Positions 7,464 to 38,828 of a stretch of 53,635 nucleotides of DNA are shown here, piece after piece. Source of the DNA: a virus (lineage: Duplodnaviria; Heunggongvirae; Uroviricota; Caudoviricetes); the IMG/VR virus record IMGVR_UViG_2537561603_000004, positions 1 to 53,635 of that record; one strand, written 5' to 3'. A program made the translations under genes and the position numbers. The notes under the pieces were generated by a model. It saw only the letters and a program-made list of their open reading frames with translations. It did no database searches and had not been told where the DNA came from. Numbering within the stretch: the stretch's first letter is position 1; every line of letters begins with the position of its first letter.

Positions 7464-8009
7464 ATGACTATGCAACCACTTACATACCAACAGACTAGCG
7501 GATTTAGCCCGACAGCGGTGATAAATCGTTCTCAAACAAAACAGGTGCCAGGCCACGAAAAAATCCGTGATGCCGTCCGCGCCTGGTCGGCTGTAGATAA
7601 TCAGGATGTCGTTGCCACACTCATTGTGAATGAGTATCGGGAGCAGGGCGGCGGCACCATCGATTTCCCTGATGATGTCAGCCGTGCACGCCAGAAGCTG
7701 TTCCGCTTCCTCGATAACAAATTCGATTCTGAAAAATACCGAAATAACGTGCGTGAATTGACCCCGGCAATTCTGGCGGTACTACCGCTGGAATATCGCG
7801 GCCACTTGGTTGAGCAGGATAGCTTCATGGCTCGGCTGGCTGAAATGGAAAAGGAACTCAGTGAGGCAAAACAGGCTGTCATTCTCAACGCACCACGCCA
7901 CCAGAAACTGAAGGAGATGAGTGAAGGCATTGTGTCGATGTTTCGTGTGGACCCGGACCTGGCTGGTCCATTGATGGCGATGGTCACCACCATGCTGGGG
8001 GCAATATGA
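7464..8009 (+). CDS. CII-position regulatory protein (YdaT-like, tentative)
   Basis: 181-aa ORF between cro-like gene and O, the position of cII; family assignment from weak recollection only. Confidence 0.4.
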   Translation: MTMQPLTYQQTSGFSPTAVINRSQTKQVPGHEKIRDAVRAWSAVDNQDVVATLIVNEYREQGGGTIDFPDDVSRARQKLFRFLDNKFDSEKYRNNVRELTPAILAVLPLEYRGHLVEQDSFMARLAEMEKELSEAKQAVILNAPRHQKLKEMSEGIVSMFRVDPDLAGPLMAMVTTMLGAI

Positions 8010-8095
8010 CAGGTTCAGAAATGGCAAAAGCCGGTCTGCGCGAACAGAACCGACTTTCAGGTGCAAATCGTAACACACTCATTGCGGGAGGAATT

Positions 8096-9025
8096 ATGGC
8101 AAACACTGCTGAGATATTCAATTTTCCAGTGCCGGATGCGGCACAAAAGGAGCCGCGCGTGGCAGATCTCGATGATGGTTATACGCGCATTGCAAATGAG
8201 TTGCTGGAAGCTGTGATGCTGGCCGGATTAACACAGCACCAGCTTCTGGTCTTCCTGGCTGTCATGCGCAAAACATATGGCTTTAATAAAAAACTGGATT
8301 GGGTTAGCAACGAGCAACTTTCCGAATTAACCGGGATATTGCCGCACAAGTGTTCTGCTGCAAAAAGTGTTCTGGTAAAGCGTGGGATTTTTATTCAGAG
8401 CGGGCGGAATACCGGCATTAATAATGTGGTCAGTGAATGGTCAACATTACCCGAATCAGGTAAGAAAAATAAAGTTTACCTGAAAGAGGTAAATTTACCT
8501 GAATCAGGTAAAAAAAGTTTACCCAAATCAGGTAAAGGCGTTTACCCGAATCAGGTAAACACAAAAGACAAACTAACAAAAGACAATATAAAACCTTTTT
8601 CGTCCGAGAATTCTGGCGAATCCTCTGACCAACCAGAAAACGATCTTCCTGTGGTGAAACCGGATGCTGCAATTCAGAGCGGCAGCAAGTGGGGGACAGC
8701 AGAAGACCTGACCGCCGCAGAGTGGATGTTTGACATGGTGAAGACCATCGCGCCATCAGCCAGAAAACCGAATTTTGCAGGGTGGGCTAACGATATCCGC
8801 CTGATGCGTGAACGTGACGGACGTAACCACCGCGACATGTGCGTGCTGTTCCGCTGGGCATGCCAGGACAACTTCTGGTCCGGTAACGTGCTAAGTCCGG
8901 CCAAACTCCGCGACAAGTGGACCCAACTCGAAATCAACCGTAACAAGCAACAGGCAGGCGTGACAGCTAGCAAACCAAAACTCGACCTGACAAACACAGA
9001 CTGGATTTACGGGGTGGATCTATGA
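8096..9025 (+). CDS. O: Replication initiator protein O
   Basis: Strong similarity to lambda O N-terminus (VADLDDGY...LLEA...KTYG.NK) with the LPESGK repeat region encoded by ori iterons; ATG at 8096 preceded by gggagg. Confidence 0.9.
   Translation: MANTAEIFNFPVPDAAQKEPRVADLDDGYTRIANELLEAVMLAGLTQHQLLVFLAVMRKTYGFNKKLDWVSNEQLSELTGILPHKCSAAKSVLVKRGIFIQSGRNTGINNVVSEWSTLPESGKKNKVYLKEVNLPESGKKSLPKSGKGVYPNQVNTKDKLTKDNIKPFSSENSGESSDQPENDLPVVKPDAAIQSGSKWGTAEDLTAAEWMFDMVKTIAPSARKPNFAGWANDIRLMRERDGRNHRDMCVLFRWACQDNFWSGNVLSPAKLRDKWTQLEINRNKQQAGVTASKPKLDLTNTDWIYGVDL
8447..8558 (+). repeat. Origin of replication iterons (ori-lambda type) inside O
   Basis: Five ~17-bp repeats TTACC(C/T)(G/A)AA(T/A)(C/G)AGGTAA at 8447, 8476, 8496, 8519 and 8542, followed by an AT-rich stretch. 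Confidence 0.8.
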
Positions 9026-27075: not shown

Positions 27076-27351
27076 ATGTCGATGTACACAACCGCCCAGC
27101 TGCTGGCGGCAAATGAGCAGAAATTTAAGTTTGATCCGCTGTTTCTGCGTCTCTTTTTCCGTGAGAGCTATCCCTTCACCACGGAGAAAGTCTATCTCTC
27201 ACAAATTCCGGGACTGGTAAACATGGCGCTGTACGTTTCGCCGATTGTTTCCGGTGAGGTTATCCGTTCCCGTGGCGGCTCCACCTCTGAATTTACGCCG
27301 GGATATGTCAAGCCGAAGCACTTAGCATGGCTTTCTGAGGCTTTCGTGTAG
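27076..27351 (+). pseudogene. E: Major capsid protein E, 5' portion (codons 1-81), interrupted by insertion at 27320/27321
   Basis: Translation MSMYTTAQLLAANEQKFKFDPLFL...TPGYVKPKH matches the lambda gpE N-terminus, then reads into unrelated sequence (LAWLSEAFV) and stops; the remainder of E resumes at 38043. Confidence 0.9.
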
Positions 27352-27448
27352 TTGCTGGTTTTTACACTTAATCTTTTGATAATAAAGAATAAGTCTATCT
27401 GGCGCTTTCACTGGATTTTCCTCGTTATCTGTGTGTTGCAATCATCTC

Positions 27449-27469
27449 TGTATTGCAGCTTGTATTGCT
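27449..27469 (+). repeat. Arm-type repeat, left copy (TGTATTGCAGCTTGTATTGCT)
   Basis: 21-bp sequence repeated in the same orientation at 37942-37962 (one mismatch), just inside each element end. Confidence 0.6.
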
Positions 27470-27483
27470 TTTTGGGGCTTAAA

Positions 27484-28719
27484 ATGGCTGGCGAGAACAA
27501 ACTGAGCGACAAAGCACTTAAAGGATATCTGGGGAAACCCAGAGAAAAGCAGATCACCATTGCTGATGGAAAGGGGCTTTCTATTCGTGTGAGTACCAAG
27601 GGGGCTGTGAGCTTTGTTTTCTTCTACAGGTTAGCAGGTGGCCGGGCTGCTCCGGTCTGGCTAACGTTGGGTAAATATCCTGATATGTCACTCAAACAGG
27701 CAAGGGAAAAGCGCGACGAGTGCCGTGGTTGGTTGGCTGACAAACGTGATCCGCGTATCCAGATTAAGATTCAGGCTGAAGAACGCTTAAAGCCGGTCAC
27801 AGTGGAGGATGCACTAAATTACTGGTATGAAAATTACTGTAAGGTGCGTCGTAAAACTCATGCTGTAACGCTTGGCAGATTTCGAAAGCATATTTTTCCC
27901 TATATCGGTCATTTGCCTGTAAATGACACTCACCTATATGAATGGCTGGACTGTTTTGACCGAATTAAACGTAATGCACCAGTTATGGCGGCGTATGTTT
28001 TTTCTGACACTAAATTAGCTCTTCGTTTTTGTCGGGTACGCCAGTACGCGACGTGTGATGCTTTAAAGGATTTGCGCATGAGTGATGTGGGGCAGATTGC
28101 AGGTAAGCGGGATCGGGTTCTGGATGAAGCCGAGCTGGGCCAGCTCTGGAAAGCAATTTTTGTCGAGCCTGATTTAAAACTAATGTCTGAATACACGCGA
28201 AAAATGTTTGTACTTTGTACAGTATTTGGATGTCGAATGAGTGAAGCCCGATTATCAGAATGGAGCGAATGGGATCTCGAAAGTTGGGTTTGGACTGTAC
28301 CAAAAGATCACTCAAAAACTGGTGTTGAAATCGTCAGACCAGTACCTGAAATTCTACGACAGTGGGTAACGGATGTTCACGAAGAGACAAAACATACTGG
28401 TTATGTGCTGGGAAGTCTGCGAATTAGAGAAAGCGTAAGCAAGATTGGGGGGAAAATCGGTAAACGTTTGGGCCATGAAAAACAATGGTCACTACACGAC
28501 CTTAGAAGAACGCTATCTACTCATCTAAGTGATCTCGGTGTTGAATTTTATGTAGTAGAACAACTGTTAGGCCATGCGCTACCTGGCGTGGCAGGTGTTT
28601 ACAACCGGAGTAAGTTTATGGCTAAAAAACTGGATGCTCTGGAACTCTGGACTACATATCTCAATAGCATCGCAGGTGCTGATTCAAAAGTGATAATCCT
28701 CAAACAAAAGGCTGGTTAA
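27484..28719 (+). CDS. Tyrosine integrase (P4-type, satellite-associated)
   Basis: 411-aa protein from the ATG at 27484; catalytic motifs HDLRRT and LLGHA...GVYNR; the N-terminal extension in the ORF track is unlikely to be coding. Confidence 0.85.
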   Translation: MAGENKLSDKALKGYLGKPREKQITIADGKGLSIRVSTKGAVSFVFFYRLAGGRAAPVWLTLGKYPDMSLKQAREKRDECRGWLADKRDPRIQIKIQAEERLKPVTVEDALNYWYENYCKVRRKTHAVTLGRFRKHIFPYIGHLPVNDTHLYEWLDCFDRIKRNAPVMAAYVFSDTKLALRFCRVRQYATCDALKDLRMSDVGQIAGKRDRVLDEAELGQLWKAIFVEPDLKLMSEYTRKMFVLCTVFGCRMSEARLSEWSEWDLESWVWTVPKDHSKTGVEIVRPVPEILRQWVTDVHEETKHTGYVLGSLRIRESVSKIGGKIGKRLGHEKQWSLHDLRRTLSTHLSDLGVEFYVVEQLLGHALPGVAGVYNRSKFMAKKLDALELWTTYLNSIAGADSKVIILKQKAG

Positions 28720-28720
28720 C

Positions 28721-28948
28721 ATGAAAAAAATGGCGATTGTTGATAAAAAGGGTCTGGAGTACATTCCTAACATCGATCGTATGATCCGTGAGAAAGAATG
28801 TCGGGAGCTAACCACTCTTGCGAACAGCACACGCTGGAAGCTGGAGAAGGAAGGGAAATTTCCTAAGCGGATCAAGATTGGCTCCACTGCTGTTGCATAT
28901 CGTCTTTCAGAAGTGCAGGCATGGATTCGAGGTGAGTGGGTAGTTTAA
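28721..28948 (+). CDS. AlpA-family transcriptional regulator/excisionase
   Basis: 75-aa protein with AlpA-like HTH (LANSTRWKLEKEGKFPKRIKIGSTAVAYRLSEVQAWI) directly after the integrase. Confidence 0.7.
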   Translation: MKKMAIVDKKGLEYIPNIDRMIREKECRELTTLANSTRWKLEKEGKFPKRIKIGSTAVAYRLSEVQAWIRGEWVV

Positions 28949-29017
28949 ATTATCTCAGAATAAAATATTATGAATTACTGATTTGAGAATTTGCACTCAA
29001 ATCAGTAATAACATTCT

Positions 29018-29554
29018 TTATAAGAGATTAAATCCAAATAAAGAGTAATCATATGCCGGGGTGCATTGCATCCCACTGAATATGCTGATATTTTTTTCTG
29101 TTTCTATCCTTTTTTCAATAAGTTGTTGTATATTTTTACAGTACAATTTGTGTGTGATGTTATTATCGTAAGCCTGATATAACAACGTCAATGTTGACGC
29201 TATGAAACATGCAGAAAGAAAATGAACTAGTACATGTGAACGTTTTTTGGTTGTCCATGATGCATTCGCTTGTGAAATATAAATCATTCTGAGAAGGATA
29301 ATGATGATAGACAGTAACAGACCACTCAATAAAATAAGCATTGGGTTTGCGTATTTTATTAATGGTTGAGAGCAAAAAACCATTATGGCTCCTGTGACTG
29401 CGTATGAGAAAAAGGAGTAATTAAACTTTTTACTTCTTCTCTCAAGTATTTTAATTTCATCTTGTGTGGGGGTTTTAGATGCCTCTAATATAAGTTTATT
29501 GAATGTTTCTATTATCTTGTTTTTTATGTTTGTGGCTATTTTTTTTAGATTCAT
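29018..29554 (-). CDS. Multi-pass membrane protein of unknown function (accessory cargo)
   Basis: 178-aa ORF with ~4 hydrophobic helices in a strongly AT-rich segment (about 28950-29870); own RBS (gggag). Confidence 0.5.
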   Translation of the reverse strand: MNLKKIATNIKNKIIETFNKLILEASKTPTQDEIKILERRSKKFNYSFFSYAVTGAIMVFCSQPLIKYANPMLILLSGLLLSIIIILLRMIYISQANASWTTKKRSHVLVHFLSACFIASTLTLLYQAYDNNITHKLYCKNIQQLIEKRIETEKNISIFSGMQCTPAYDYSLFGFNLL

Positions 29555-29904
29555 AGTATTCTAACTCCCTTAACTTATTTATTACTTTCTCTTTATGATA
29601 AGAGAGGGGAATGACTTGGTAAAGTGATTTGTAATTAATAATGATAATCCTTGCGATAAATATTTCTGCAAGTTATTTATCTGTTTGTTGCTATCTTGTT
29701 AAGCGTTGGGTGTGGTTTATGTTTGGAGCGACTTTATTTAATCGTGATTTTATGGATCTATATTTATATCCTGTAAGATAAGCGCATGTTAGTTCAGGAG
29801 TAGTGTCAGATAAAATTATTCGGAGTAGAACTACCTTTTCTGTTTATTGCCAGTATTTACATAGCAATGCGCCGTAGTTACTCACATCACGGCGCTGATA
29901 GTAA

Positions 29905-30207
29905 TTATTCAGATTCTTTGGCTTTACGCCGCTGGAGTTCTTCACGAGCGACGGCTACGAGTTGCCCGATTTCCTCCGCTGCCTTGATGCCGATTTGTTC
30001 GACCTTAGCTAAGGCATCCAGTGAAGACACGAGGGGATTTTCTCCGCTTCCTTCTGCCTGGCGGCGGGCGATCTCACCGCGCATGGCGGTTACTATGAAT
30101 CCGGCGTTGCTTTCGCCGTCCAGTTTTACGGATTCCATGCCCTCCATAACATCGTGGGGAACCCTGATCGTTGTCATTTGCGATTTTGCATTTTTGTATA
30201 CAGACAT
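29905..30207 (-). CDS. Ribbon-helix-helix (CopG/Arc-like) DNA-binding protein, putative repressor
   Basis: 100-aa ORF; N-terminal TTIRVPHDVMEGMESV pattern resembles an RHH beta-strand/helix; divergent from the rightward replication operon with operator-like repeats between. Confidence 0.45.
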   Translation of the reverse strand: MSVYKNAKSQMTTIRVPHDVMEGMESVKLDGESNAGFIVTAMRGEIARRQAEGSGENPLVSSLDALAKVEQIGIKAAEEIGQLVAVAREELQRRKAKESE

Positions 30208-30226
30208 AGTTAATCACCAATTTGTT

Positions 30227-30329
30227 ATGTGTATATCACTATACACAAAAGTGAGATATAAAAACACTTGCAATGTATATCACCACAATATAATGTATAT
30301 CTCACATCATGGTCGCTATGTATCTCACA
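30227..30329. promoter_or_regulatory. Divergent promoter region with repeated TGTAT(A)TC(A/T)CA operator-like motifs
   Basis: Direct repeats at 30227-30240, 30273-30284, 30293-30306 and 30318-30329, plus an inverted element (atatcac ... gtgagatat). Confidence 0.5.
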
Positions 30330-30415
30330 ATGATCGATTCATAAAAACGACGAAACCCGGCAGTGCGCGAACACTAACCGGGCTTCTAACCAAACCGTTA
30401 AACGAGGTAACGATT

Positions 30416-30781
30416 ATGGCTGGAACACAGCATACCCAAACTCACCCTAAATTTATATACACCTTTCTGGCACTACACCACGACCGCATGGCAGATGGAG
30501 CAACTACGGTACATGTTGCCGCTGACACGCTGGTTGATGCCCGCAAGATGGTTAAGGAGATGGGCTATACTGCGGCTTTCTGGAAAGGGCGTGAAGAAAA
30601 CACGCTGTTTATTCAGAAATGCGAAAACAATTTCATCTGGCGTTTTATCGCCCTGAGCACCGCACAACCACGCGTAATACACATCGAGGCCGCCAGCGAA
30701 CAGGAAGCCCGCCAGCAATTCCCAACTGGCTACGTGATGATATTCGCCGCCCGTATTCGTCAGGAGGTGTGCCATGAATGA
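30416..30781 (+). CDS. Hypothetical protein (first gene of rightward operon)
   Basis: 121-aa ORF from the ATG at 30416; the upstream part of the 304-aa track ORF spans the promoter and is rejected. Confidence 0.4.
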   Translation: MAGTQHTQTHPKFIYTFLALHHDRMADGATTVHVAADTLVDARKMVKEMGYTAAFWKGREENTLFIQKCENNFIWRFIALSTAQPRVIHIEAASEQEARQQFPTGYVMIFAARIRQEVCHE

Positions 30782-30998
30782 TCTTTATTTTAAAGTGCTG
30801 ACACATGCTGAAAACGCGCTCGTTTGTGGCAAAAATATGCGAGAAATCTTATCAACCTGGCTTGATGGGACAACAAATGCGGAACACGATGAACGGGATG
30901 CTAATTTAGCTGGAGCGTTAATTACGTTACTTGATCCTGTCATCAAAGAGCTGGATGAAGCTATAAAAATACACGACCAGAGCTATACCGGAGAATAA
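30774..30998 (+). CDS. Hypothetical protein
   Basis: 74-aa ORF with strong RBS (aggaggtg), overlapping the upstream gene stop. Confidence 0.4.
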   Translation: MNDLYFKVLTHAENALVCGKNMREILSTWLDGTTNAEHDERDANLAGALITLLDPVIKELDEAIKIHDQSYTGE

Positions 30999-31001
30999 AA
31001 A

Positions 31002-31289
31002 ATGAAAAATAAATTTTCTGGCTTTATTGCCAGCGGTCAAACTCATTCAAAAATCAGCCTTGGGGATATTTTCAAAGACAGCTATGGCTATCGGGTAAAG
31101 ATTATTTCGGTTGATGATCGTCGTGTCTCTTATTTGCGTGATGGTTATGATTTTGAATGTGTTATGCCGCGTCAGCAGTTCGAAAGAGATTTCATTCTGG
31201 TAAAAAATTGCAAGACAGATAATCAGAGGCGTGCCGCAGGCTATATCCGTAAAATTCGGGCAATGTTAGTTGCCGGAGGTAACAAATGA
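31002..31289 (+). CDS. Hypothetical protein
   Basis: 95-aa ORF overlapping the primase start. Confidence 0.4.
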   Translation: MKNKFSGFIASGQTHSKISLGDIFKDSYGYRVKIISVDDRRVSYLRDGYDFECVMPRQQFERDFILVKNCKTDNQRRAAGYIRKIRAMLVAGGNK

Positions 31290-33106
31290 AACGTGCTCCG
31301 AACTTAAAATACCAACCGCGCGACAAAATGACGGAAGTCATCATTTTTGCTGGCAGTGATGCCTGGAGCCATGCAAAAGAATGGAATGAATGGGCAGGTA
31401 AGCATATTGCAGCAGATGATACACCACCAGTCATTCTGGGTACGGAACAACTGGAAAACCTGGATGATATGCAAATTATCGATGAAGGCCGTCATTATGT
31501 GCGTGTTTATCGTGCCGGAAAGATTGCAGAGAAAAGTCTGACGAAGGTTGCGACATTACTTGCTATTGCAGGCGTAAAGGAAGCACGTTGTTACCGTAGC
31601 TTTGTTGATCGAGAGCCTGAAGACTGGACTCCGCGCCTTGTCGGCCTAAAAGCTGAAGCGGAGCATGGGGAAAGTCTGGTGATTGAACTGCCAGTTAAGA
31701 AGGCTGAGCGCAAAAATGACGAGCGTGCTTCATCTTTGGCGTTGAATCAGATGGGGGCCAGCCAGCGCGGTGAAGTTCTCCTTGCACATTACGGCGGCGA
31801 ACTGGCAATCAATGCCGACTCTGACACCGTTCATCATTACAACGGCGTTGTATGGGAGCCGGTTCAGGATAAAGAGTTACAGCGTGCTATGGCGCAGATT
31901 TTCATTGATGCGGAGATCAGCTATTCGCAGAACGCTATTAAATCGGCGGTAGATACCATGAAGTTAAGTTTGCCTGTAATGGGGAATACAGCCCGTAACC
32001 TGATTGGATTCAGTAACGGGGTATTTGATACCAGAACTGGTAACTTTCGGGAGCATAACAAAAACGACTGGTTGTTAATTGCCAGTGAATTACCTTTCAG
32101 CCCACCAGCAGAGGGGGAAACGCTGGCAACACATGCGCCGAATTTCTGGAAGTGGTTGCGCCGTTCGGTGGCTGAGAATGACCGCAAGGCAGATCGCGTA
32201 CTGGCGGCATTATTCATGGTGCTGGCGAACCGGTACGACTGGCAGTTATTCATTGAGGTAACAGGGCCGGGGGGAAGTGGTAAAAGTGTGATGGCGGAGA
32301 TTTGCACCATGCTGGCGGGTAAGGCTAATACAGTATCAGCAAGCATGAAGGCGCTGGAAGATGCAAGGGAACGTGCGTTAGTGGTTGGCTTTTCGCTGAT
32401 TATCATGCCGGATATGACCCGCTACGCTGGTGATGGGGCAGGGATTAAGGCCATTACAGGCGGTGACAAGGTGGCAATTGACCCGAAACACAAAGCCCCC
32501 TATTCAACGCGTATTCCGGCAGTAGTGCTGGCGGTTAACAATAACGCCATGTCATTCAGTGACCGCAGCGGGGGGATCTCACGTCGTCGGGTGATATTCA
32601 ATTTTTCGGAAGTTGTACCGGAGAACGAACGCGATTCGATGCTGGCGGAAAAAATAGAAGGTGAGCTGGCGGTAGTGATTCGCCATCTGCTTACACGGTT
32701 TGCTGATCAGGACGAAGCCAGACGCCTGTTATATGAGCAGCAGAAATCTGAAGAAGCACTGGCGATAAAGCGAGAGGGGGATTCGCTGGTGGACTTCTGC
32801 GGCTATCTCATGGCATCGGTAATGTGTGATGGCCTGTTAGTGGGTAATGCTGAAATTGTGCCATTCAGCCCACGCAGGTATCTCTATCATGCCTATCTGG
32901 CTTATATGAGGGCACATGGGTTTGGTAAACCTGTAACACTGACGCGCTTCGGTAAAGATATGCCGGGGGCAATGGCGGAATATGGCAGGGAGTATATGAA
33001 ACGGAAAACGAAGCACGGTTTGCGTTCAAACGTGACACTGACGGAGGAATCAGAAGACTGGATGCCATCATGTGTATCGGTCACTAATGACGATAGCAAA
33101 AATTAA
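31286..33106 (+). CDS. Primase-helicase (P4/PICI-type Pri-Rep, SF3 helicase C-terminal domain)
   Basis: 606-aa protein with Walker A (GPGGSGKS) and following Walker B-like region; RBS ggaggt; followed immediately by iterons. Confidence 0.75.
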   Translation: MKRAPNLKYQPRDKMTEVIIFAGSDAWSHAKEWNEWAGKHIAADDTPPVILGTEQLENLDDMQIIDEGRHYVRVYRAGKIAEKSLTKVATLLAIAGVKEARCYRSFVDREPEDWTPRLVGLKAEAEHGESLVIELPVKKAERKNDERASSLALNQMGASQRGEVLLAHYGGELAINADSDTVHHYNGVVWEPVQDKELQRAMAQIFIDAEISYSQNAIKSAVDTMKLSLPVMGNTARNLIGFSNGVFDTRTGNFREHNKNDWLLIASELPFSPPAEGETLATHAPNFWKWLRRSVAENDRKADRVLAALFMVLANRYDWQLFIEVTGPGGSGKSVMAEICTMLAGKANTVSASMKALEDARERALVVGFSLIIMPDMTRYAGDGAGIKAITGGDKVAIDPKHKAPYSTRIPAVVLAVNNNAMSFSDRSGGISRRRVIFNFSEVVPENERDSMLAEKIEGELAVVIRHLLTRFADQDEARRLLYEQQKSEEALAIKREGDSLVDFCGYLMASVMCDGLLVGNAEIVPFSPRRYLYHAYLAYMRAHGFGKPVTLTRFGKDMPGAMAEYGREYMKRKTKHGLRSNVTLTEESEDWMPSCVSVTNDDSKN

Positions 33107-33116
33107 ACTTATGGAA

Positions 33117-33345
33117 TAACTGTTCACCACTGTTCACCCTGTCATAAATATCTTTTATATCAGTATATTATAGGGTGAACAGTTATTTATGAACTGTTCA
33201 CCAAACTATTCACTGTTCACCTTTTTGATTGTTTATTGAGCTTCAAGGGTGAACAGTGGTGAACAGTTGGTGAATAGTTTTTGTGAAACTGTTCACCAAT
33301 TAACATTATGAATTAAAAGAGAAAATATCAAAAGGTGAACAGGTG
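33117..33345. repeat. Replication origin iterons (CTGTTCACC / GGTGAACAG, about 10 copies in both orientations)
   Basis: Dense array of 9-bp repeats immediately downstream of the primase-helicase gene. Confidence 0.8.
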
Positions 33346-33393
33346 AAGGGTTAAAACGCAAAAATTTTAATTTACTGCTGTGAGATAAAGCCT

Positions 33394-33639
33394 ATGACAG
33401 CGAAGCACACAAAAAAATCACAATCGCACGCCCTTGATTTGACGGAACACTGGTTAAGGGTGTCGATAAAAATCATCGACCGCAACGCCGGGGAAGGATA
33501 CGCGAAAGCACATCCCGAACTGATTAGCGCATTCATGACAACGGCGGCTGCAAACTTTGCCACTCTGACCGAACGGGAGATTGCTGAAGCGGAGGAAGTG
33601 ACAACAATCAATATTAAGTCCGGAGAGCAGGCAGCATGA
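33394..33639 (+). CDS. Hypothetical protein
   Basis: 81-aa ORF between ori and ssb. Confidence 0.35.
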   Translation: MTAKHTKKSQSHALDLTEHWLRVSIKIIDRNAGEGYAKAHPELISAFMTTAAANFATLTEREIAEAEEVTTINIKSGEQAA

Positions 33640-34085
33640 CGGCGCAAATATCAGTTTACGGGCGGTTGGTGGACGACCCGCAGACAAAACAGACCAGCAA
33701 GGGCACCCCCATGACGCTGGCGCGTATGGCGGTATCACTGCCCTGCAGTCAGTCGGATGACGGTCAGGCGACGATGTGGTTATCTGTCCTGGCGTTTGGC
33801 AGACAAGCCGACGCGCTGGCAAAGCATCACAAAGGCGAACTCCTGAGCGTGGCGGGTAACATGCAGATGAGCCAGTGGACTGGACAGAACGGCGAAACGC
33901 GGCAGGGCTGGCAGGTTATCGCAGACAGCGTAATCAGTGCGCGATCGGTGCGACCGGGCGGCAATAAAGGCCAACAGGGGCAGGCTACTGACGCACTGAA
34001 CAGAGCAAAACAACAGGCAGATCAGCAAGGAAGCCAGCCACCAGTGGGAGATAATGAGCAATGGGGAGATGATATCCCGTTTTAA
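33636..34085 (+). CDS. ssb: Single-stranded DNA-binding protein (SSB)
   Basis: 149-aa protein with OB-fold-like N-terminus (ISVYGRLVDDPQ...), Gly/Gln-rich linker and the SSB-signature acidic tail DDIPF. Confidence 0.7.
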   Translation: MTAQISVYGRLVDDPQTKQTSKGTPMTLARMAVSLPCSQSDDGQATMWLSVLAFGRQADALAKHHKGELLSVAGNMQMSQWTGQNGETRQGWQVIADSVISARSVRPGGNKGQQGQATDALNRAKQQADQQGSQPPVGDNEQWGDDIPF

Positions 34086-34302
34086 ATATTGCCAATAAAA
34101 AAAGGCCGGAAAAAATAAATTTTCCGGCATGCTACATAAATCCCGACCAAAGGGAGTGAAGATATTAACACTAATTTTCCGCACTGAAGTTGTCACCCCA
34201 AAACTTTATACAACATTGCACTCGGTTGCATGTATTCGCATGACAAATATCGGTGATAGCATATATCCACAATTATTTTTAATGAATGCAAAGAGGATGC
34301 GT

Positions 34303-35343
34303 ATGGTTGATTTATATTCGCCTACTCAGCTTGTACAGGTGGTTAATGCTGTAGATGTACAAAAACAACTAAATGCGTTGTTTACCAGTTTGTTTTTTAC
34401 TCGCTCGGTAATGTTTGAATCGCGCGATATTATTCTTGATACAATCGACGATCCAAATATCCCAATTGCAGCGTTTTGTTCTCCTATGGTGGGTAGTAAA
34501 GTTTCACGTGACGAAGGGTACGAATCAAAAACAATTCGTCCAGGCTATATGAAGCCGAAAAGCAGCATTGATCCAAATAAGTTAGCTGTGCGCCCTGCTG
34601 GTGTATCACCTGAGCAATACAATGCTTTTGGGGCGCGTAATATTAAAGTTAAACAGGCGATTGTAAATCAAGCTAAAGCTATTCGTGCACGTATTGAATG
34701 GCTTGCTGTTCAGGCAATCACAACGGGGAAAAATATCATTGAGGGCGATGGTATTGAACGTTATGAGCTGGACTGGAATATTAAACCACAAAATATCATC
34801 ACTCAGTCTGGCGGTGCTGAGTGGTCAGGTAAGGATAAAGAAACTTTTGATCCAAATGATGATATTGAGAGCTACGCAGAATTTAGTGAGGGCGTCACTA
34901 ATATTATCATTATGGGCGGTAATGTATGGAAGAAATACCGTTCATTCAGAGCGATAAAAGAGGCTCTGGATACCCGTCGTGGTTCTAATTCCGAACTGGA
35001 AACGGCCCTTAAAGACCTTGGTGATTCGGTGAGTTTTAAAGGGTATATGGGCGATGTTGCGATTGTTGTTTACAGCGGGCGTTATACCGACGAGGACGGA
35101 ACAGAAAAACATTTCCTTGATCCTGATTTGATGGTGCTTGGCAATACGGCTCTTCAGGGGATTGTCGCCTATGGCGGTATTCAGGATCCGGAGCTAATCC
35201 GAATGGGGCTGACTAAAGCCGAACTTGCACCGAAAAACTATATTGTGCCTGGTGATCCGGCTATTGAATATGTGCAGACACATTCAGCACCACAGCCAAT
35301 ACCGGCCCGCATCAATCGTTTTGTTACCGTTCGCATTGGCTAA
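34303..35343 (+). CDS. Element-encoded major capsid protein, divergent homologue of lambda gpE
   Basis: ~346-aa protein with clear but partial similarity to lambda gpE along its length (e.g. TRRGSNSELETA.KDLG...GDVAIVVYSG); ATG at 34303 with RBS aagagga. Confidence 0.8.
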   Translation: MVDLYSPTQLVQVVNAVDVQKQLNALFTSLFFTRSVMFESRDIILDTIDDPNIPIAAFCSPMVGSKVSRDEGYESKTIRPGYMKPKSSIDPNKLAVRPAGVSPEQYNAFGARNIKVKQAIVNQAKAIRARIEWLAVQAITTGKNIIEGDGIERYELDWNIKPQNIITQSGGAEWSGKDKETFDPNDDIESYAEFSEGVTNIIIMGGNVWKKYRSFRAIKEALDTRRGSNSELETALKDLGDSVSFKGYMGDVAIVVYSGRYTDEDGTEKHFLDPDLMVLGNTALQGIVAYGGIQDPELIRMGLTKAELAPKNYIVPGDPAIEYVQTHSAPQPIPARINRFVTVRIG

Positions 35344-35352
35344 GGGGGAGCA

Positions 35353-35694
35353 ATGGCTACTCATTACACTGAACTCATGGCTGGCACTGAAGCACTGGTG
35401 ACTACGCTGGGGATATTTTCAGCTAATAAAGGGGTAATTCCTGCATTTACGCCACTGATGCAGGAAGATGCAACAGGTGCACTGGTGGTATGGGATGGTT
35501 CGAGCGTAGGTAAAGCGGTTTATGTTTCCGCTGTACAAATCGACACCGCGAAAAAAACACAGGCTCAGGTCTATAAGACAGGTGTCTTAAATGTTGATGC
35601 TCTGAACTGGCCTGAGTCTGTTAAAGAACTGTCAGTAAAGGTTGCAGCGTTTGTTGGCTCAGGTATTTCTGTTCAGCCGCTGGCTCGTGTGTAA
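35353..35694 (+). CDS. Element-encoded decoration protein, divergent homologue of lambda gpD
   Basis: 113-aa protein alignable to lambda gpD (PAFTPLMQEDATGALVVWDGSSVGKAV... versus [27 protein letters not shown]...). Confidence 0.7.
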   Translation: MATHYTELMAGTEALVTTLGIFSANKGVIPAFTPLMQEDATGALVVWDGSSVGKAVYVSAVQIDTAKKTQAQVYKTGVLNVDALNWPESVKELSVKVAAFVGSGISVQPLARV

Positions 35695-35705
35695 AGGGGG
35701 ATACA

Positions 35706-36089
35706 ATGCAGAATGATTACAATGACCTTAAGCCAATTGCCGAAATGATGTACCCGAATCAAGCTGTAGAGGAATTAAAAGCTATCGCTGACAAAATGTG
35801 TTTAAGCGAGCGCCTTGTTGATATGAATCAGGTGATGGAAATTACAACCCTGAGTCGTCGTACACTGCTAAACCTTGAGGCTAGTGGAGAGTTCCCGGAG
35901 CGTGTGCAGGTTACGGAAGGGCGTAAGGCCTGGTATTTAAGTGAAGTGATCGACTGGATAAATAATATTCCTCGCGCTTCTGAATATTGCCGCGTACCTG
36001 TCCCAAAAAAGCCAGATGCGGCGCTATGCCTCAAGATTGAGCGTGTACGCCGCAATGCACGGGATGGTCGCTATAAGCTGATTGGTTGA
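35706..36089 (+). CDS. AlpA/MerR-like winged-HTH protein upstream of the element cos site
   Basis: 127-aa protein; segment MEITTLSRRTLLNLEASGEFPERVQVTEGRKAWYLSEVIDWI is AlpA-like. Confidence 0.5.
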   Translation: MQNDYNDLKPIAEMMYPNQAVEELKAIADKMCLSERLVDMNQVMEITTLSRRTLLNLEASGEFPERVQVTEGRKAWYLSEVIDWINNIPRASEYCRVPVPKKPDAALCLKIERVRRNARDGRYKLIG

Positions 36090-36109
36090 TGAAATTAGGG
36101 CCCGCTCTG

Positions 36110-36320
36110 GCTGGCGGGTCCTTTCCGGCGATCCAGAACGTTACGGGGCGTCAGGCGCGCAGTTTTTTGCTATTTGTGAAAATTTTCCTGTTTAAGGCGT
36201 TTCCGTTCTTCTTCGCCGTAACTTAATGTTTTTATTAAAAACACCCCCTAAAAAGAAAGGAAACGACAGGTGCTAAAAACAGGCTTTTTGGCCTCTGTCG
36301 TTTCCTTTCTCTGGTTTTGT
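36110..36320 (+). other. Second cos-like site (cosQ/cosB conserved, cosN region divergent)
   Basis: ~210 bp alignable to the prophage cos at 20912-21125; the cosN-equivalent reads gggcgtcaggcg instead of gggcggcgacct. Confidence 0.8.
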
Positions 36321-36687
36321 TGCCATCCGTCGCGGTCTATCACCAGAAAAAATCTTATCCCTGAGTTGAATCAGGCACTATTCAGAAGCGGCCAATAACG
36401 CGCCGCTAGCTTCACTTCATAGTTATGGCCTACTTCTGCGCCATTGCAATTGCTTTATGCGCCTTGATGGTGGAATATAGAGCAAGCAGTTTGCGAATAA
36501 CAAAGTTTCATATGTTTTTTGCTGTGTGGCTAGACAACTTTACAGCAGAGTTTTGTGTCAGTTCTTTATGTGTGCAAGCAAGCTTGAGGGGGAATTACTT
36601 CTGGCTGCATCTTTGCTTAAGAACAGCAATAATTTAATCATAAGGAAATGTATATAAGCCTGATTAAATTTCAGGCTTATTGAAATG

Positions 36688-37830
36688 TTAACTCCTTATT
36701 AGAGAGTAAATTCCATCCTCTTTAAGGAAGTCTATTACTTCAAAGAATGAGATAAAGAATTCCCAAGAACCAAAAGCATATGCATGAATTTCGTAAGGTG
36801 CAAAATGGAATCTAAATCCATCACTATTTATTGTGAACGAGTCTAAGTTACTATCCATGATACCCGTTGCAAACGTACTAATGTCGTCCTCACTTGGTTT
36901 TTCACCAGTTTTCTCCCAAAATTCACGAGCTGATTCAGAGATTATTTTTTGTTTTATCTTATTAATCGCTTCTTGCTCTTTCCCTTCGGTAAATACATCC
37001 CATAAACTAAATTTGTATGCGTAGTCATCCTTGGTTATTACGAAATTACTAGTTTCAAAATGACTGTTAGGGTGTGCTGCTCCCGCACCATACCAATGTA
37101 CGGAATGAAGGATGCTCATGACATTTTCGTTACAGTATGAGATGTTATAACTTTCATTATAGGAACTAGTGTAAGTGTGTTTATATTCTTCATCCCAATA
37201 TGGTGTTCCTGGCCATAGTGATGTGCGTTCAGAAAAAATATGTAAAGCCGCTTTTCCTGAAAAGTAATCACTAATGAGTTTTGCTGATTTCGGTAATGTA
37301 TGGCTTTCAATTCTTGGATATGCTATTTCAATTTCATGCCCTGGGATCTTGTTATATTCTTCCTTGAAAACCTCGCTGCTAAAGTTAAATGGCCCATAAG
37401 TGATACCTTGAGATATTTCAAGTTTTTGTTGCGATGCTGCTAATCTTAAAGATCTAGATAAAATGTCCCAACCATCATTTCTCTTAAAATCAATGAATTG
37501 GAGCTTGCTTGATATGTAGGCGGGTACTTCGCAATCATCAATAAGTAATGGTATCACGAACACATCATCTGGTTTGTAATACTTTAGTTTATCAATGGCG
37601 TCATTTATTTCGCGGCGAATATAACCATTTTTCTGAGTGCTCACTTTGCTAAGGATAAGGATTATCAAGTTTGAATTAGCGAAGTTTTTTTGGATTTCAT
37701 AATCCCAGTTTACGCCAGCGGGTATATCTTTTACATCCATCCAAGGGGAATATCCTCCACTTTTTAGCCTTTCATAGATTTCTTCAGTTATCGTTTCATC
37801 TTCTTTTGCATGAGCAAGAAAAATTTTCAT
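36688..37830 (-). CDS. TIR-domain protein with uncharacterised C-terminal domain (candidate anti-phage effector)
   Basis: 380-aa ORF; N-terminal ~120 aa fit a bacterial TIR fold (MKIFLAHAKEDE...LKSGGYSPWMDVKDIPAGVNWDYEI...SNLIILILSKVS...REINDAI); AT-rich, own RBS (aagga); between the element cos and its right end. Confidence 0.7.
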   Translation of the reverse strand: MKIFLAHAKEDETITEEIYERLKSGGYSPWMDVKDIPAGVNWDYEIQKNFANSNLIILILSKVSTQKNGYIRREINDAIDKLKYYKPDDVFVIPLLIDDCEVPAYISSKLQFIDFKRNDGWDILSRSLRLAASQQKLEISQGITYGPFNFSSEVFKEEYNKIPGHEIEIAYPRIESHTLPKSAKLISDYFSGKAALHIFSERTSLWPGTPYWDEEYKHTYTSSYNESYNISYCNENVMSILHSVHWYGAGAAHPNSHFETSNFVITKDDYAYKFSLWDVFTEGKEQEAINKIKQKIISESAREFWEKTGEKPSEDDISTFATGIMDSNLDSFTINSDGFRFHFAPYEIHAYAFGSWEFFISFFEVIDFLKEDGIYSLIRS

Positions 37831-37941
37831 TGAATATTCCTTTATAATTTAACTAATTAAGTGAAGGAGGCTTTACTTGGCTGTGTTAGAAAAAATTCGG
37901 TTTGTTTTTTGTACGATGCCAAGAAGGCTTTTCCCTAACCA

Positions 37942-37962
37942 TGTATTGCAGCATGTATTGCT
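37942..37962 (+). repeat. Arm-type repeat, right copy (TGTATTGCAGCATGTATTGCT)
   Basis: Same-orientation copy of the 27449-27469 repeat. Confidence 0.6.
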
Positions 37963-38042
37963 ACGTAATTCTGCACCCTCTCATTTATAAAATAAATCTC
38001 TGTTAAATCAAGTATCTTTTTTCTATTTGACTCATGTAACCC

Positions 38043-38828
38043 AAGCATGAAGTGAATCCGCAGATGACCCTGCGTCGCCTGCCGGATGAAGATCCGCAGA
38101 ATCTGGTGGACCCGGCTTACCGCCGCCGTCGCATCATCATGCAGAACATGCGTGACGAAGAGCTGGCCATTGCTCAGGTCGAAGAGATGCAGGCAGTTTC
38201 TGCCGTGCTTAAGGGCAAATACACCATGACCGGTGAAGCCTTCGATCCGGTTGAGGTGGATATGGGCCGCAGTGAGGAGAATAACATCACGCAGTCCGGC
38301 GGCACGGAGTGGAGCAAGCGTGACAAGTCCACGTATGACCCGACCGACGATATCGAAGCCTACGCGCTGAACGCCAGCGGTGTGGTGAATATCATCGTGT
38401 TCGATCCGAAAGGCTGGGCGCTGTTCCGTTCCTTCAAAGCCGTCAAGGAGAAGCTGGATACCCGTCGTGGCTCTAATTCCGAGCTGGAGACAGCGGTGAA
38501 AGACCTGGGTAAAGCGGTGTCCTATAAGGGGATGTATGGCGATGTGGCCATCGTCGTGTATTCCGGACAGTACGTGGAAAACGGCGTCAAAAAGAACTTC
38601 CTGCCGGACAACACGATGGTGCTGGGGAACACTCAGGCACGCGGTCTGCGCACCTATGGCTGCATTCAGGATGCGGACGCACAGCGCGAAGGCATTAACG
38701 CCTCTGCCCGTTACCCGAAAAACTGGGTGACCACCGGCGATCCGGCGCGTGAGTTCACCATGATTCAGTCAGCACCGCTGATGCTGCTGGCTGACCCTGA
38801 TGAGTTCGTGTCCGTACAACTGGCGTAA
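38043..38828 (+). pseudogene. E: Major capsid protein E, 3' portion (codons ~80-341), separated from 5' portion by the insertion
   Basis: Translation KHEVNPQMTLRRLPDEDPQNL...FVSVQLA matches lambda gpE from residue ~80 to the C-terminus, in frame with the core. Confidence 0.9.

What the first reader, a model, noticed from the sequence alone, without database searches (positions are those of the whole stretch)
27449..37962. Same-orientation 21-bp repeats near both element ends, consistent with integrase arm sites
TGTATTGCAGCTTGTATTGCT at 27449-27469 and TGTATTGCAGCATGTATTGCT at 37942-37962 lie about 130 bp and 85 bp inside the left and right junctions. Each is an internal direct duplication of TGTATTGC. 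Together with the AAGCA core this defines attL and attR and supports a genuine site-specific insertion rather than a recombinational mosaic.
Basis: seen in the sequence. Interest (0 to 1): 0.6.

Follow-up and report, generated by a model that had tools for sequence, protein, structure and literature searches.

The report
Arm-site repeats of a helper-embedded satellite
The two 21-bp repeats are real, but they are the already published doubled TGTATTGC motif flanking the recombination site of a phage satellite that sits inside a lambda-like prophage's capsid gene, and they most likely dock the satellite integrase's arm-binding domains.

Summary
TGTATTGCAGCTTGTATTGCT (27449-27469) and TGTATTGCAGCATGTATTGCT (37942-37962) are co-oriented. 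They lie 128 nt and 81 nt inside the AAGCA junction copies (27316-27320; 38043-38047).

The 10,727-bp element splits a lambda-type major capsid gene E. Rejoining the flanks restores a 341-aa open frame.

This is a helper-embedded PICI of the 11capE type (Tommasini, Mageeney & Williams 2023, PMC10111431). That paper already reports this doubled motif, its two co-oriented copies, their spacing (81±2 and 132±2 bp from the attP centre) and the arm-site hypothesis. The binder has never been tested.

My independent checks:
- 78 of 78 motif-blind Int relatives carry an exact doublet upstream of int, down to 52% Int identity.
- Seven E. coli cargo variants keep the attR-side doublet 81-82 nt from the core, within otherwise unrelated DNA.

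Beyond the paper:
- The "motif-less" fis and hpt sister PICIs carry their own doubled 12-nt-period repeats at the same positions (inter-doublet gap 211-215 nt).
- Clade-specific invariant residues concentrate in the Int N-terminal arm-binding domain, not in AlpA.

Verdict: a real feature and a sound interpretation, but already known. Interest is low to moderate.

The parts
27076..27320 (+). 5' part of the prophage major capsid gene E (codons 1 to ~82, ending ...KPK-H), interrupted by the element
   Evidence: ORF list. Joined to 38048-38828 it gives a 341-aa gpE with no stops. Contiguous match to lambda E.
27316..27320 (+). AAGCA, left copy of the attL/attR identity block. The phage-type context here is AAGCCGAAGCA.
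27321..38047 (+). Helper-embedded PICI (11capE type), 10,727 bp, co-oriented with the late operon. GC is 0.34-0.52 against 0.56-0.60 in the flanks.
   Evidence: PMC10111431.
27369..27381 (-). IHF-consensus match TAATCTTTTGATA in the P' arm, 80 nt before the int-proximal doublet (candidate bending site, inferred)
   Evidence: A match at the same position occurs in three unrelated subfamilies, and a relaxed match in most. Shuffled expectation is 0.009 per arm.
27432..27439 (+). Degenerate extra half-site TGTGTTGC (weak; probably not functional)
   Evidence: it reads TGCGTTGC in relatives with 92-93% identical Int, so it is not conserved as a motif.
27449..27469 (+). Int-proximal doubled motif (P' arm; attL side): TGTATTGCagctTGTATTGCt. 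Starts 128 nt after AAGCA, and its 20-mer core ends 15 nt before the int ATG.
27484..28719 (+). int: tyrosine integrase with an N-terminal Arm-DNA-bind_3 domain (res 7-93)
   Evidence: Pfam E=3.7e-19 and 1e-16. Closest solved structures are the arm-type binding domains 3JU0 and 3JTZ/3RMP.
28721..28948 (+). alpA: wHTH excisionase/activator candidate
   Evidence: Pfam Phage_AlpA E=2.8e-15.
31286..33106 (+). D5-type primase-helicase, preceded by a DUF4222 gene (31002-31289)
33105..33320 (.). Iteron-like direct and inverted GGTGAACAGT repeats (candidate satellite origin)
   Evidence: D2, D9, I1, I2, I14, I18.
34303..35694 (+). The satellite's own gpE-like capsid gene (34303-35343) and gpD-like decoration gene (35353-35694)
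   Evidence: Pfam Phage_cap_E 2.4e-41 and HDPD 4.5e-15. RefSeq annotation.
36688..37830 (-). TIR + DUF3298 cargo gene in the variable hotspot next to the P arm
   Evidence: Other copies carry different cargo in this slot.
37942..37962 (+). Distal doubled motif (P arm; attR side): TGTATTGCagcaTGTATTGCt. Its 20-mer core ends 81 nt before AAGCA.
38027..38047 (+). Conserved core-proximal segment TTGACTCATGT plus the satellite-type 10-bp block AACCCAAGCA (right AAGCA = 38043-38047)
38048..38828 (+). 3' part of the prophage capsid gene E (EVNPQ... to the stop)

Best explanation
The two 21-mers are the P-arm and P'-arm 'arm-type' sites of the attP of a helper-embedded PICI satellite.

Shown:
- The element is an 11capE-type satellite inserted at codon ~80 of a lambdoid prophage's capsid gene E.
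- In the excised circle the two doublets lie 214 nt apart with the crossover region asymmetrically between them: 81 nt from the end of the P-arm doublet (its 20-mer core) to AAGCA, and 128 nt from AAGCA to the P'-arm doublet.
- Sequence and spacing are under strong selection across the whole integrase clade.

Inferred:
- Each 8-bp half-site (two per arm, 12-bp period, four in all) is read by the N-terminal Arm-DNA-bind_3 domain of one Int protomer of the recombining tetramer.
- The core-binding and catalytic domains hold the core sites.
- A bend between core and arm lets one protomer bridge arm and core. A candidate IHF site lies at 27369-27381.
- On helper induction, late transcription reads through the truncated E gene into int-alpA. 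Int plus AlpA then recombine attL x attR and restore gene E.
- The int-proximal doublet ends 15 nt before the int ATG, so bound Int may also damp int expression.
For: 1. Int carries an Arm-DNA-bind_3 domain (E=3.7e-19). It is homologous to solved arm-type binding domains of CP4/P4-like integrases.

2. Published: the same doubled motif occurs in two co-oriented copies at 81±2 and 132±2 bp from the attP centre in HE-PICIs at all 14 late-gene sites, and 11capE excision was shown by qPCR and sequencing.

3. Independent, motif-blind test: 78 of 78 Int relatives from viral contigs have an exact doublet within 120 nt upstream of int. In 33 of them Int is only 52-57% identical.

4. In seven E. coli copies with different cargo, the P arm is at random-level identity (22-35%). 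The doublet is still retained, 81-82 nt from AAGCA.

5. An unbiased motif scan of viral contigs gave 44 copies 12-65 nt upstream of an Int homologue. At least 36 more are followed, within 48-80 nt (53-80 nt in 35 of them), by a resuming gpE, portal, terminase or ClpP fragment.

6. The fis and hpt sister PICIs live in the same host species. They carry different doublets (TGTATAAACAnnTGTATAAACA; GTATATCACTCGGTGTATCAC) on both arms, with the same 12-nt period and the same 211-212 nt gap. Two natural uninterrupted attP contigs show the 211-nt gap directly.

7. In divergent HE subclades the Int N-domain is 65-73% identical, against 40-56% (core-binding) and 42-52% (catalytic). Residues invariant in HE and never seen in fis/hpt are 5 of 95 in the N-domain (Q23, R35, F44, P57, W59) against 3 of 316 elsewhere (Fisher p=0.018).

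8. AlpA has no such residue in its HTH or wing, and its recognition helix varies inside the HE clade.

9. Precedent: ICEMlSym-R7A has defined 10-bp IntS arm motifs in the arm regions flanking the core of a 283-bp attP. Its intS is adjacent to attL, its wHTH RDF binds a single attP region upstream of intS (on the attL side) without a clear consensus, and attP-bound IntS represses intS.
Against: - There are no binding data for any protein. The 2023 authors left Int, AlpA or an unknown protein open, and no follow-up was found in the library.
- The covariation test uses only three clades. The fis set was ascertained by its motif, and hpt is represented by a single sequence.
- The p-value treats alignment positions as independent and ignores phylogeny.
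- The N-domain could be conserved for reasons other than DNA reading.
- The single-sequence structure model is low-confidence (pLDDT 44.8). Placing the clade-specific residues on beta-strands is therefore only suggestive.
- The promoter scan shows no significant int promoter overlapping the doublet, so the autoregulation step is speculative.
Confidence: 0.72

Rival explanations
1. The doublets are binding sites for AlpA, the wHTH excisionase/activator encoded next to int. AlpA would set recombination directionality or activate int and satellite transcription.
For: The 2023 paper names AlpA as a possible binder. alpA follows int in every HE element examined. Direct repeats with roughly one-turn spacing suit head-to-tail wHTH oligomers (BldC/RdfS discussion). 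One doublet lies just upstream of int.
Against: The AlpA recognition-helix region varies widely among HE elements that share an invariant doublet. It is no more different in fis/hpt, which use other doublets, and there are no clade-specific residues at positions 24-72. One Int subfamily occurs with AlpAs 45% and 82-85% identical to the window's, with the same doublet. In the one characterised precedent read here, the RDF binds a single attP region with weak sequence consensus. No TGTATTGC doublet lies at any internal promoter region of the element.
Confidence: 0.13
2. The doublets bind some other factor, either an unidentified element-encoded protein or a host protein. They would act as operators, insulators, or replication/packaging signals that only happen to sit near the ends.
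For: The binder is unknown. The attR-side copy borders the variable cargo hotspot, and the attL-side copy borders int, so transcriptional roles are conceivable.
Against: Spacing to the crossover is fixed within ±2 bp at different target genes and cores, which is what recombination geometry predicts and operators do not. A host factor is unlikely, because HE, fis and hpt elements in the same species use different doublets. Packaging is unlikely, because the architecture is shared by elements with and without their own terminase and portal genes. The iteron-like origin lies elsewhere. Int and AlpA were the only element-encoded DNA-binding candidates examined and found in all three clades here.
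Confidence: 0.1
3. The similarity is a chance or mosaic artefact with no function.
For: None beyond the short length of the repeat.
Against: 0.00 matches expected in shuffles. Exact conservation in 78 of 78 Int relatives. Retention in otherwise unrelated DNA at a fixed distance. Published independently.
Confidence: 0.01

Closest known systems
Doubled motif tgTGTATTGCantgTGTATTGCa of helper-embedded PICIs; type element Eco567.11capE, site E:Phage_cap_E:80 (Tommasini, Mageeney & Williams 2023, PMC10111431)
   Same: Same element family: Int is >=99% identical in each domain to that of 11capE (L002). Same target codon in a lambda-type gene E, same motif, same orientation, and same distances from the core.
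   Different: Only the cargo (TIR-DUF3298 here; DUF262+HEPN in 11capE) and the core context differ. Here attL is lambda-type (AAGCCGAAGCA) and attR is satellite-type (AACCCAAGCA), leaving 5 bp of identity instead of 10.
att sites of fis- and hpt-integrating capsid-forming PICIs (sister integrase clades)
   Same: Two co-oriented doubled repeats with a 12-nt period, one 21-23 nt before int and one at the far end. Inter-doublet gap in attP is 211-212 nt, against 214-215 nt here.
   Different: The repeat sequences differ (TGTATAAACA; GTRTATCACTC). The targets are chromosomal (fis, hpt). A DUF6387 gene lies between int and the AlpA-like gene. The 2023 paper reported the TGTATTGC motif as absent from these PICIs and did not describe their own doublets.
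IntS arm-type sites P1-P5 of ICEMlSym-R7A with the wHTH RDF RdfS (PMC11963761)
   Same: A tyrosine integrase gene immediately downstream of attL. Short defined arm motifs in the arm regions flanking the core of a ~280-bp attP. The RDF is a wHTH protein. attP-bound Int represses int.
   Different: Five single 10-bp motifs (TGKTGGTATC) rather than two tandem doublets. A 502-kb ICE in a tRNA gene, with experimental support that is lacking here.
Phage lambda Int arm-type sites (P1, P2, P'1-3) with IHF, Xis and Fis; P2 Int tandem arm repeats (from my own knowledge, not tested here)
   Same: Heterobivalent integrase logic: the N-domain reads distal arm repeats, bending proteins bridge arm and core, and the RDF acts on one arm.
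   Different: A different N-domain family (Arm-DNA-bind_3/DUF4102 type here), a different number and arrangement of sites, and a target inside a phage structural gene.

Membership tests
Helper-embedded PICI (HE-PICI) | Integrated inside a late gene of a (lambdoid) prophage, co-oriented with it | tested here: met
   The element splits gene E between D and FI of a complete lambdoid late operon. int, alpA and the primase are on the same strand.
Helper-embedded PICI (HE-PICI) | Integrase belongs to the 11capE clade | tested here: met
   Int is >=99% identical in each domain to that of 11capE in NRG857c (L002); element DNA is 98.1% identical over the 84% of the 11-kb query (element plus short gpE flanks) that it covers.
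Helper-embedded PICI (HE-PICI) | GN-PICI gene order: int-alpA, dynamic zone, primase/replication, late zone | tested here: met
   int, alpA, YlcI/Icd-like zone, DUF4222, primase, SSB, capsid E and D homologues.
Helper-embedded PICI (HE-PICI) | Two co-oriented TGTATTGC doublets at about 81 and about 132 bp from the attP centre | tested here: met
   81 nt and 128 nt to the AAGCA edges. Centres are about 82 and 133 using the 10-bp block.
Helper-embedded PICI (HE-PICI) | Precise excision after helper induction, restoring the late gene | not testable with these tools
   Shown for 11capE by qPCR and deep sequencing (PMC10111431). Here only the in-silico rejoined ORF is available.
Arm-type sites of a heterobivalent tyrosine integrase | The integrase has a separate N-terminal arm-binding domain | tested here: met
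   PF13356 Arm-DNA-bind_3, residues 7-93, E=3.7e-19. PDB 3JU0 and 3JTZ/3RMP homologues.
Arm-type sites of a heterobivalent tyrosine integrase | Repeats on both arms of attP, distant from the core and different from it | tested here: met
   P arm about -81 and P' arm about +128. No resemblance to the core AACCCAAGCA.
Arm-type sites of a heterobivalent tyrosine integrase | Sequence and spacing conserved among relatives while surrounding DNA diverges | tested here: met
Arm-type sites of a heterobivalent tyrosine integrase | Repeat sequence co-varies with the integrase N-domain | tested here: inconclusive
   Three clades have three different doublets. Clade-specific residues are enriched in the N-domain (p=0.018) and absent from the AlpA HTH. 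Few independent contrasts, and no phylogenetic correction.
Arm-type sites of a heterobivalent tyrosine integrase | Direct, specific binding by the Int N-domain, and a requirement for recombination | not testable with these tools
   No experiment in the literature held.

The most novel reading that the evidence does not exclude
The doublet is one instance of a family-wide attP design that has not been described. In this PICI integrase family (HE, fis, hpt and more distant relatives such as L258), attP has two tandem 12-nt-period doublets about 211-215 nt apart, placed asymmetrically around the core. The doublet sequence is set by a handful of beta-sheet residues in the Arm-DNA-bind_3 domain (Q23, R35, F44, P57, W59 in the HE clade). 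Under this reading the HE clade kept arm recognition frozen while its core-binding and catalytic domains hopped among 14 or more phage late-gene targets. That would be a modular, readable and possibly re-programmable 'arm code'.
Probability: 0.5. Interest if true: 0.45.

Novelty: already known. Interest (0 to 1): 0.25.

Why it matters
The repeats mark the recombination machinery of a satellite that parasitises its helper in cis. It keeps the helper's capsid gene broken until it excises, and it carries its own capsid gene plus anti-phage cargo.

Knowing which protein reads the doublets would help explain how one integrase clade retargets to many phage late genes. It would also give a simple sequence signature for finding such satellites and their exact ends.

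All of this was already framed in 2023.

Tried and rejected
- The genome-contig scan with the single Int protein returned only 3 loci. That was too few for statistics, so I used viral contigs instead.
- My longest-common-substring heuristic for the crossover block misfired in the window, L041, L068 and L110, where chance 6-7-mers beat the true block. I corrected this by direct alignment of the junctions.
- An off-by-one error placed the left AAGCA at 27317-27321. It is corrected to 27316-27320.
- A degenerate third half-site at 27432-27439 looked promising, but it is not conserved in 92-93% relatives. Other subfamilies do have a true third TGTATTGC between the doublet and int.
- The sigma-70 promoter scan around int and around the P arm gave no more sites than shuffles, so no promoter-overlap claim is made.
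- The Rfam gathering scan of the window gave no hits.
- The single-sequence AlphaFold model of Int residues 1-105 had pLDDT 44.8, so it is not used as evidence. The alignment-based job was not possible because locus-derived sequences are not accepted.
- L053 has two HE-like doublets 238 nt apart but belongs to a Bacteroidota-type phage with an unrelated integrase. It is excluded from the family.
- About 40 singleton doublet hits in viral contigs, plus five 12-nt tandem arrays holding 10 overlapping doublet matches, are unrelated or unclassified.


Full report
**Observation**

TGTATTGCAGCTTGTATTGCT (27449-27469) and TGTATTGCAGCATGTATTGCT (37942-37962) are present on the + strand, 20/21 identical. 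With up to 3 mismatches allowed they are the only two matches in the window, against 0.00 expected from shuffles. Each is TGTATTGC repeated with a 12-nt period. Four of the eight TGTATTGC copies in the window lie in these two sites.

The left repeat starts 128 nt after the left AAGCA (27316-27320). The right repeat's 20-mer core ends 81 nt before the right AAGCA (38043-38047).

**Context**

The flanks are the two halves of a lambda-type major capsid gene E. Joining 27076-27320 to 38048-38828 gives a 341-aa open frame with no stops. It is 340/341 identical to lambda gpE as I recall that sequence. The flanks also match lambda gene E contiguously at 98.6% identity.

The surrounding window is a lambdoid prophage with a complete late operon: Nu1, A, W, B, C, D, [E], FI, FII, Z, U, V, G, T, H, M, L, K, I, J.

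The 10,727-bp insert has lower GC than its flanks. It encodes, in order:
- a tyrosine integrase with an Arm-DNA-bind_3 N-domain
- AlpA
- a YlcI/Icd-like zone
- a DUF4222 protein
- a D5-type primase-helicase
- an iteron-like region
- SSB
- its own gpE and gpD homologues
- a second AlpA-like protein
- a TIR-DUF3298 gene on the opposite strand

**Already published**

A literature search led to Tommasini, Mageeney & Williams 2023 (PMC10111431). That paper describes helper-embedded PICIs, with type element Eco567.11capE in E. coli NRG857c, inserted at E:Phage_cap_E:80. It shows precise excision after mitomycin C and reports 491 such elements at 14 late-gene sites.

Its 'Attachment sites' section reports the doubled motif tgTGTATTGCantgTGTATTGCa. 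There are two co-oriented copies per element, 81±2 bp upstream and 132±2 bp downstream of the attP centre. [quoted passage not shown]

The window's Int is >=99% identical in each domain to that of 11capE. Over the parts they share, the element's DNA is about 98% identical to 11capE. An identical copy is in E. coli TUM14697. No later paper in the held library tests the motif. The finding is therefore real but known.

**Independent tests of conservation**

1. Cargo variants. Seven E-site copies from complete E. coli genomes carry different cargo next to attR (TIR, DUF2971, DUF262+HEPN, Abi, an uncharacterised protein, restriction endonuclease, DUF3892). Their P-arm DNA around the doublet is only 22-35% identical to the window, which is random level. 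Each still keeps the doublet, with at most one mismatch in 16 specified positions, 81-82 nt from AAGCA. The int-proximal doublet sits 128 nt from AAGCA in all seven.

2. Motif-blind sample. Eighty Int relatives were retrieved from viral contigs without reference to the motif. All 78 evaluable ones have an exact doublet within 120 nt upstream of int. In 33 of them Int is only 52-57% identical to the window's.

3. The converse scan. Searching viral contigs for the exact doublet gave 118 stretches.
   - 44 copies lie 12-65 nt upstream of an Int homologue that is 49-100% identical.
   - At least 36 more are followed, within 48-80 nt (53-80 nt in 35 of them), by a late-gene fragment that resumes mid-protein. 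These are gpE at residue 80, portal, TerL at two different points, and ClpP protease at profile position 109. They match the published site types.
   - The rest are five unrelated 12-nt tandem arrays, holding 10 overlapping doublet matches, and about 40 singletons.

4. A second site group. A portal-site element (L035) has an unrelated core (TAAAGGCGAT) but nearly the same spacing, 72 and 130 nt.

**What the paper did not report**

The paper states that the TGTATTGC doublet is absent from the closely related fis and hpt PICIs. I retrieved one of each from E. coli, using the paper's attL sequences as queries.

Both lack TGTATTGC doublets, but each has its own doubled 12-nt-period repeat on both arms:
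- fis: TGTATAAACAttTGTATAAACA and TGTATAAACAtcTGTATAAACA
- hpt: GTATATCACTCGGTGTATCAC, twice

In each, one copy ends 21-23 nt before int and the other lies at the far end. These half-sites occur nowhere else in the 38-kb loci.

The gap between the two doublets in the reconstructed attP is 211 nt (fis) and 212 nt (hpt), against 214-215 nt in the HE elements. Two metagenomic contigs (L254, L268) contain an uninterrupted fis-type attP, with the doublets exactly 211 nt apart around the core AGTTCATGCCGTA. A more distant relative (L258, Int 45% identical) has GTGCAGTCAGTgGTGCAGTCAGT just upstream of int.

The architecture therefore belongs to the wider integrase family, while the sequence is clade-specific.

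**Which protein reads the doublet?**

Int. In divergent HE subclades the N-domain (residues 1-95) is 65-73% identical to the window's. The core-binding domain is 40-56% identical and the catalytic domain 42-52%. The fis and hpt Ints have the same overall identity (49-51%) but a less similar N-domain (57-60%).

I compared 57 distinct HE Ints with 20 fis and 1 hpt Int. Positions invariant in HE and never seen in the outgroup are Q23, R35, F44, P57 and W59 in the N-domain (5 of 95), against 3 of 316 elsewhere (Fisher p=0.018). HE-invariant positions overall are 39 of 95 against 67 of 316 (p=0.0003).

AlpA. I compared 45 distinct HE AlpAs with 15 fis and 1 hpt. There is no clade-specific residue in the HTH or wing. 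The recognition-helix region varies within the HE clade, and it is not more different in fis/hpt.

This favours the Int N-domain over AlpA. It is not proof: there are few independent contrasts, there is no phylogenetic correction, and a single-sequence structure model was too poor to use.

Precedent. In ICEMlSym-R7A, defined IntS arm motifs lie in the arm regions flanking the core of a 283-bp attP next to intS. The wHTH RDF binds a single attP region upstream of intS with little consensus, and attP-bound IntS represses intS. The closest solved structures to this Int are arm-type binding domains of CP4/P4-like integrases.

**Further anatomy**

IHF-like site. An IHF-consensus match (TAATCTTTTGATA, 27369-27381) lies 80 nt before the int-proximal doublet. 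Consensus matches occur at exactly that offset in two other subfamilies with unrelated arm sequence. A relaxed TAAnnnnnTGA element is there in most subfamilies. The shuffled expectation is 0.009 per arm. This is a candidate bending site, inferred from sequence only.

Crossover region. The crossover region is larger than AAGCA. Across copies, attL carries AAACCCAAGCA or AAGCCGAAGCA. attR carries AACCCAAGCA, AGCCGAAGCA or AGCCCAAGCA. The satellite side of attR can therefore carry phage-type bases at -9 and -6, which suggests that those positions lie inside the exchanged region.

Among the ten copies compared, the window (and its identical copy in TUM14697) is the only combination with lambda-type attL and satellite-type attR, leaving just 5 bp of uninterrupted identity. 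Whether that reduces excision is untested.

**Verdict**

The interpretation (attL and attR of a genuine site-specific insertion, repeats acting as integrase arm sites) is supported and is the best explanation at about 0.72 confidence. The feature and the hypothesis were published in 2023, so novelty is 'already known' and interest is low to moderate.

The incremental results here are two: the shared doublet architecture in sister clades, and the comparative evidence pointing to the Int N-domain. Both would be worth a targeted experiment.

Noticed in passing
L125 (NZ_CP061754.1; doublets at 34949-34970 and 19097-19118, minus strand) and L126 (NZ_CP018323.1; doublets at 19160-19180 and 34665-34685): The fis- and hpt-integrating capsid-forming PICIs were reported to lack the TGTATTGC motif. 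Each has its own doubled 12-nt-period repeat on both arms (TGTATAAACAnnTGTATAAACA; GTATATCACTCGGTGTATCAC), with the same ~211-212-nt inter-doublet gap in attP.
   Followed up: yes
L254 2934-3188 and L268 2790-3044 (IMG/VR contigs): Natural uninterrupted attP sites of fis-type elements (excised or packaged form). The two doublets lie exactly 211 nt apart around the core AGTTCATGCCGTA, directly upstream of int.
   Followed up: partly
window 27310-27320 vs 38037-38047: attL carries lambda-type AAGCCGAAGCA while attR carries satellite-type AACCCAAGCA. Only 5 bp are identical, against 10 bp in most copies. Other copies show AGCCGAAGCA or AGCCCAAGCA on the satellite side of attR, which suggests that positions -9 and -6 lie inside the strand-exchange region.
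   Followed up: partly
window 27369-27381: An IHF-consensus match (TAATCTTTTGATA, minus orientation) lies 80 nt before the int-proximal doublet. Consensus or near-consensus elements occur at the same offset in several unrelated HE subfamilies.
   Followed up: partly
window 36090-37941 and 28949-29900: There are two variable cargo slots. Next to the P arm this copy has TIR-DUF3298, while other copies have DUF2971, Abi, DUF262+HEPN, a restriction endonuclease or DUF3892. After alpA this copy has a 178-aa membrane protein, and L275 has an Abi protein. This looks like a satellite-borne defence hotspot.
   Followed up: partly
L011, L012, L029, L035 (int-proximal arms): Some HE subfamilies have a third exact TGTATTGC half-site about 20 nt downstream of the doublet, between it and int. 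In these the doublet-to-int distance is 50-65 nt instead of 12-25.
   Followed up: no
L053 7252-7529 (IMGVR_UViG_3300020043_006768): A Bacteroidota-type phage contig has two TGTATTGCnnnnTGTATTGC doublets 238 nt apart, plus an inverted half-site, next to an unrelated integrase (7556-8926, minus strand). This could be convergence or coincidence.
   Followed up: partly
window 33105-33320: Dense direct and inverted GGTGAACAGT repeats lie between the primase-helicase and SSB genes. This is probably the satellite replication origin.
   Followed up: no
window 34540-34575 (own capsid gene, codons around KPKS): At the position homologous to attB, the satellite's own gpE-like gene reads AAGCCGAAAAGCAGC. 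That is similar to attB AAGCCGAAGCATGAA but offset by two bases. Overall identity is 19/33 around the site, in line with the published view that self-integration is prevented.
   Followed up: partly
window ~10300-19400 and ~53700 (from the RefSeq annotation of the identical strain, L003): The helper prophage carries iss (serum-survival lipoprotein) and a 3.5-kb inverse autotransporter gene. The sitABCD iron/manganese transporter lies just beyond its tail-fibre end.
   Followed up: no
L087, L104 vs L028, L117: One Int subfamily (about 50% identical to the window's, with the same int-proximal arm) occurs with two very different AlpAs, 82-85% and 45% identical to the window's AlpA. This indicates recombination between int and alpA modules.
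   Followed up: no
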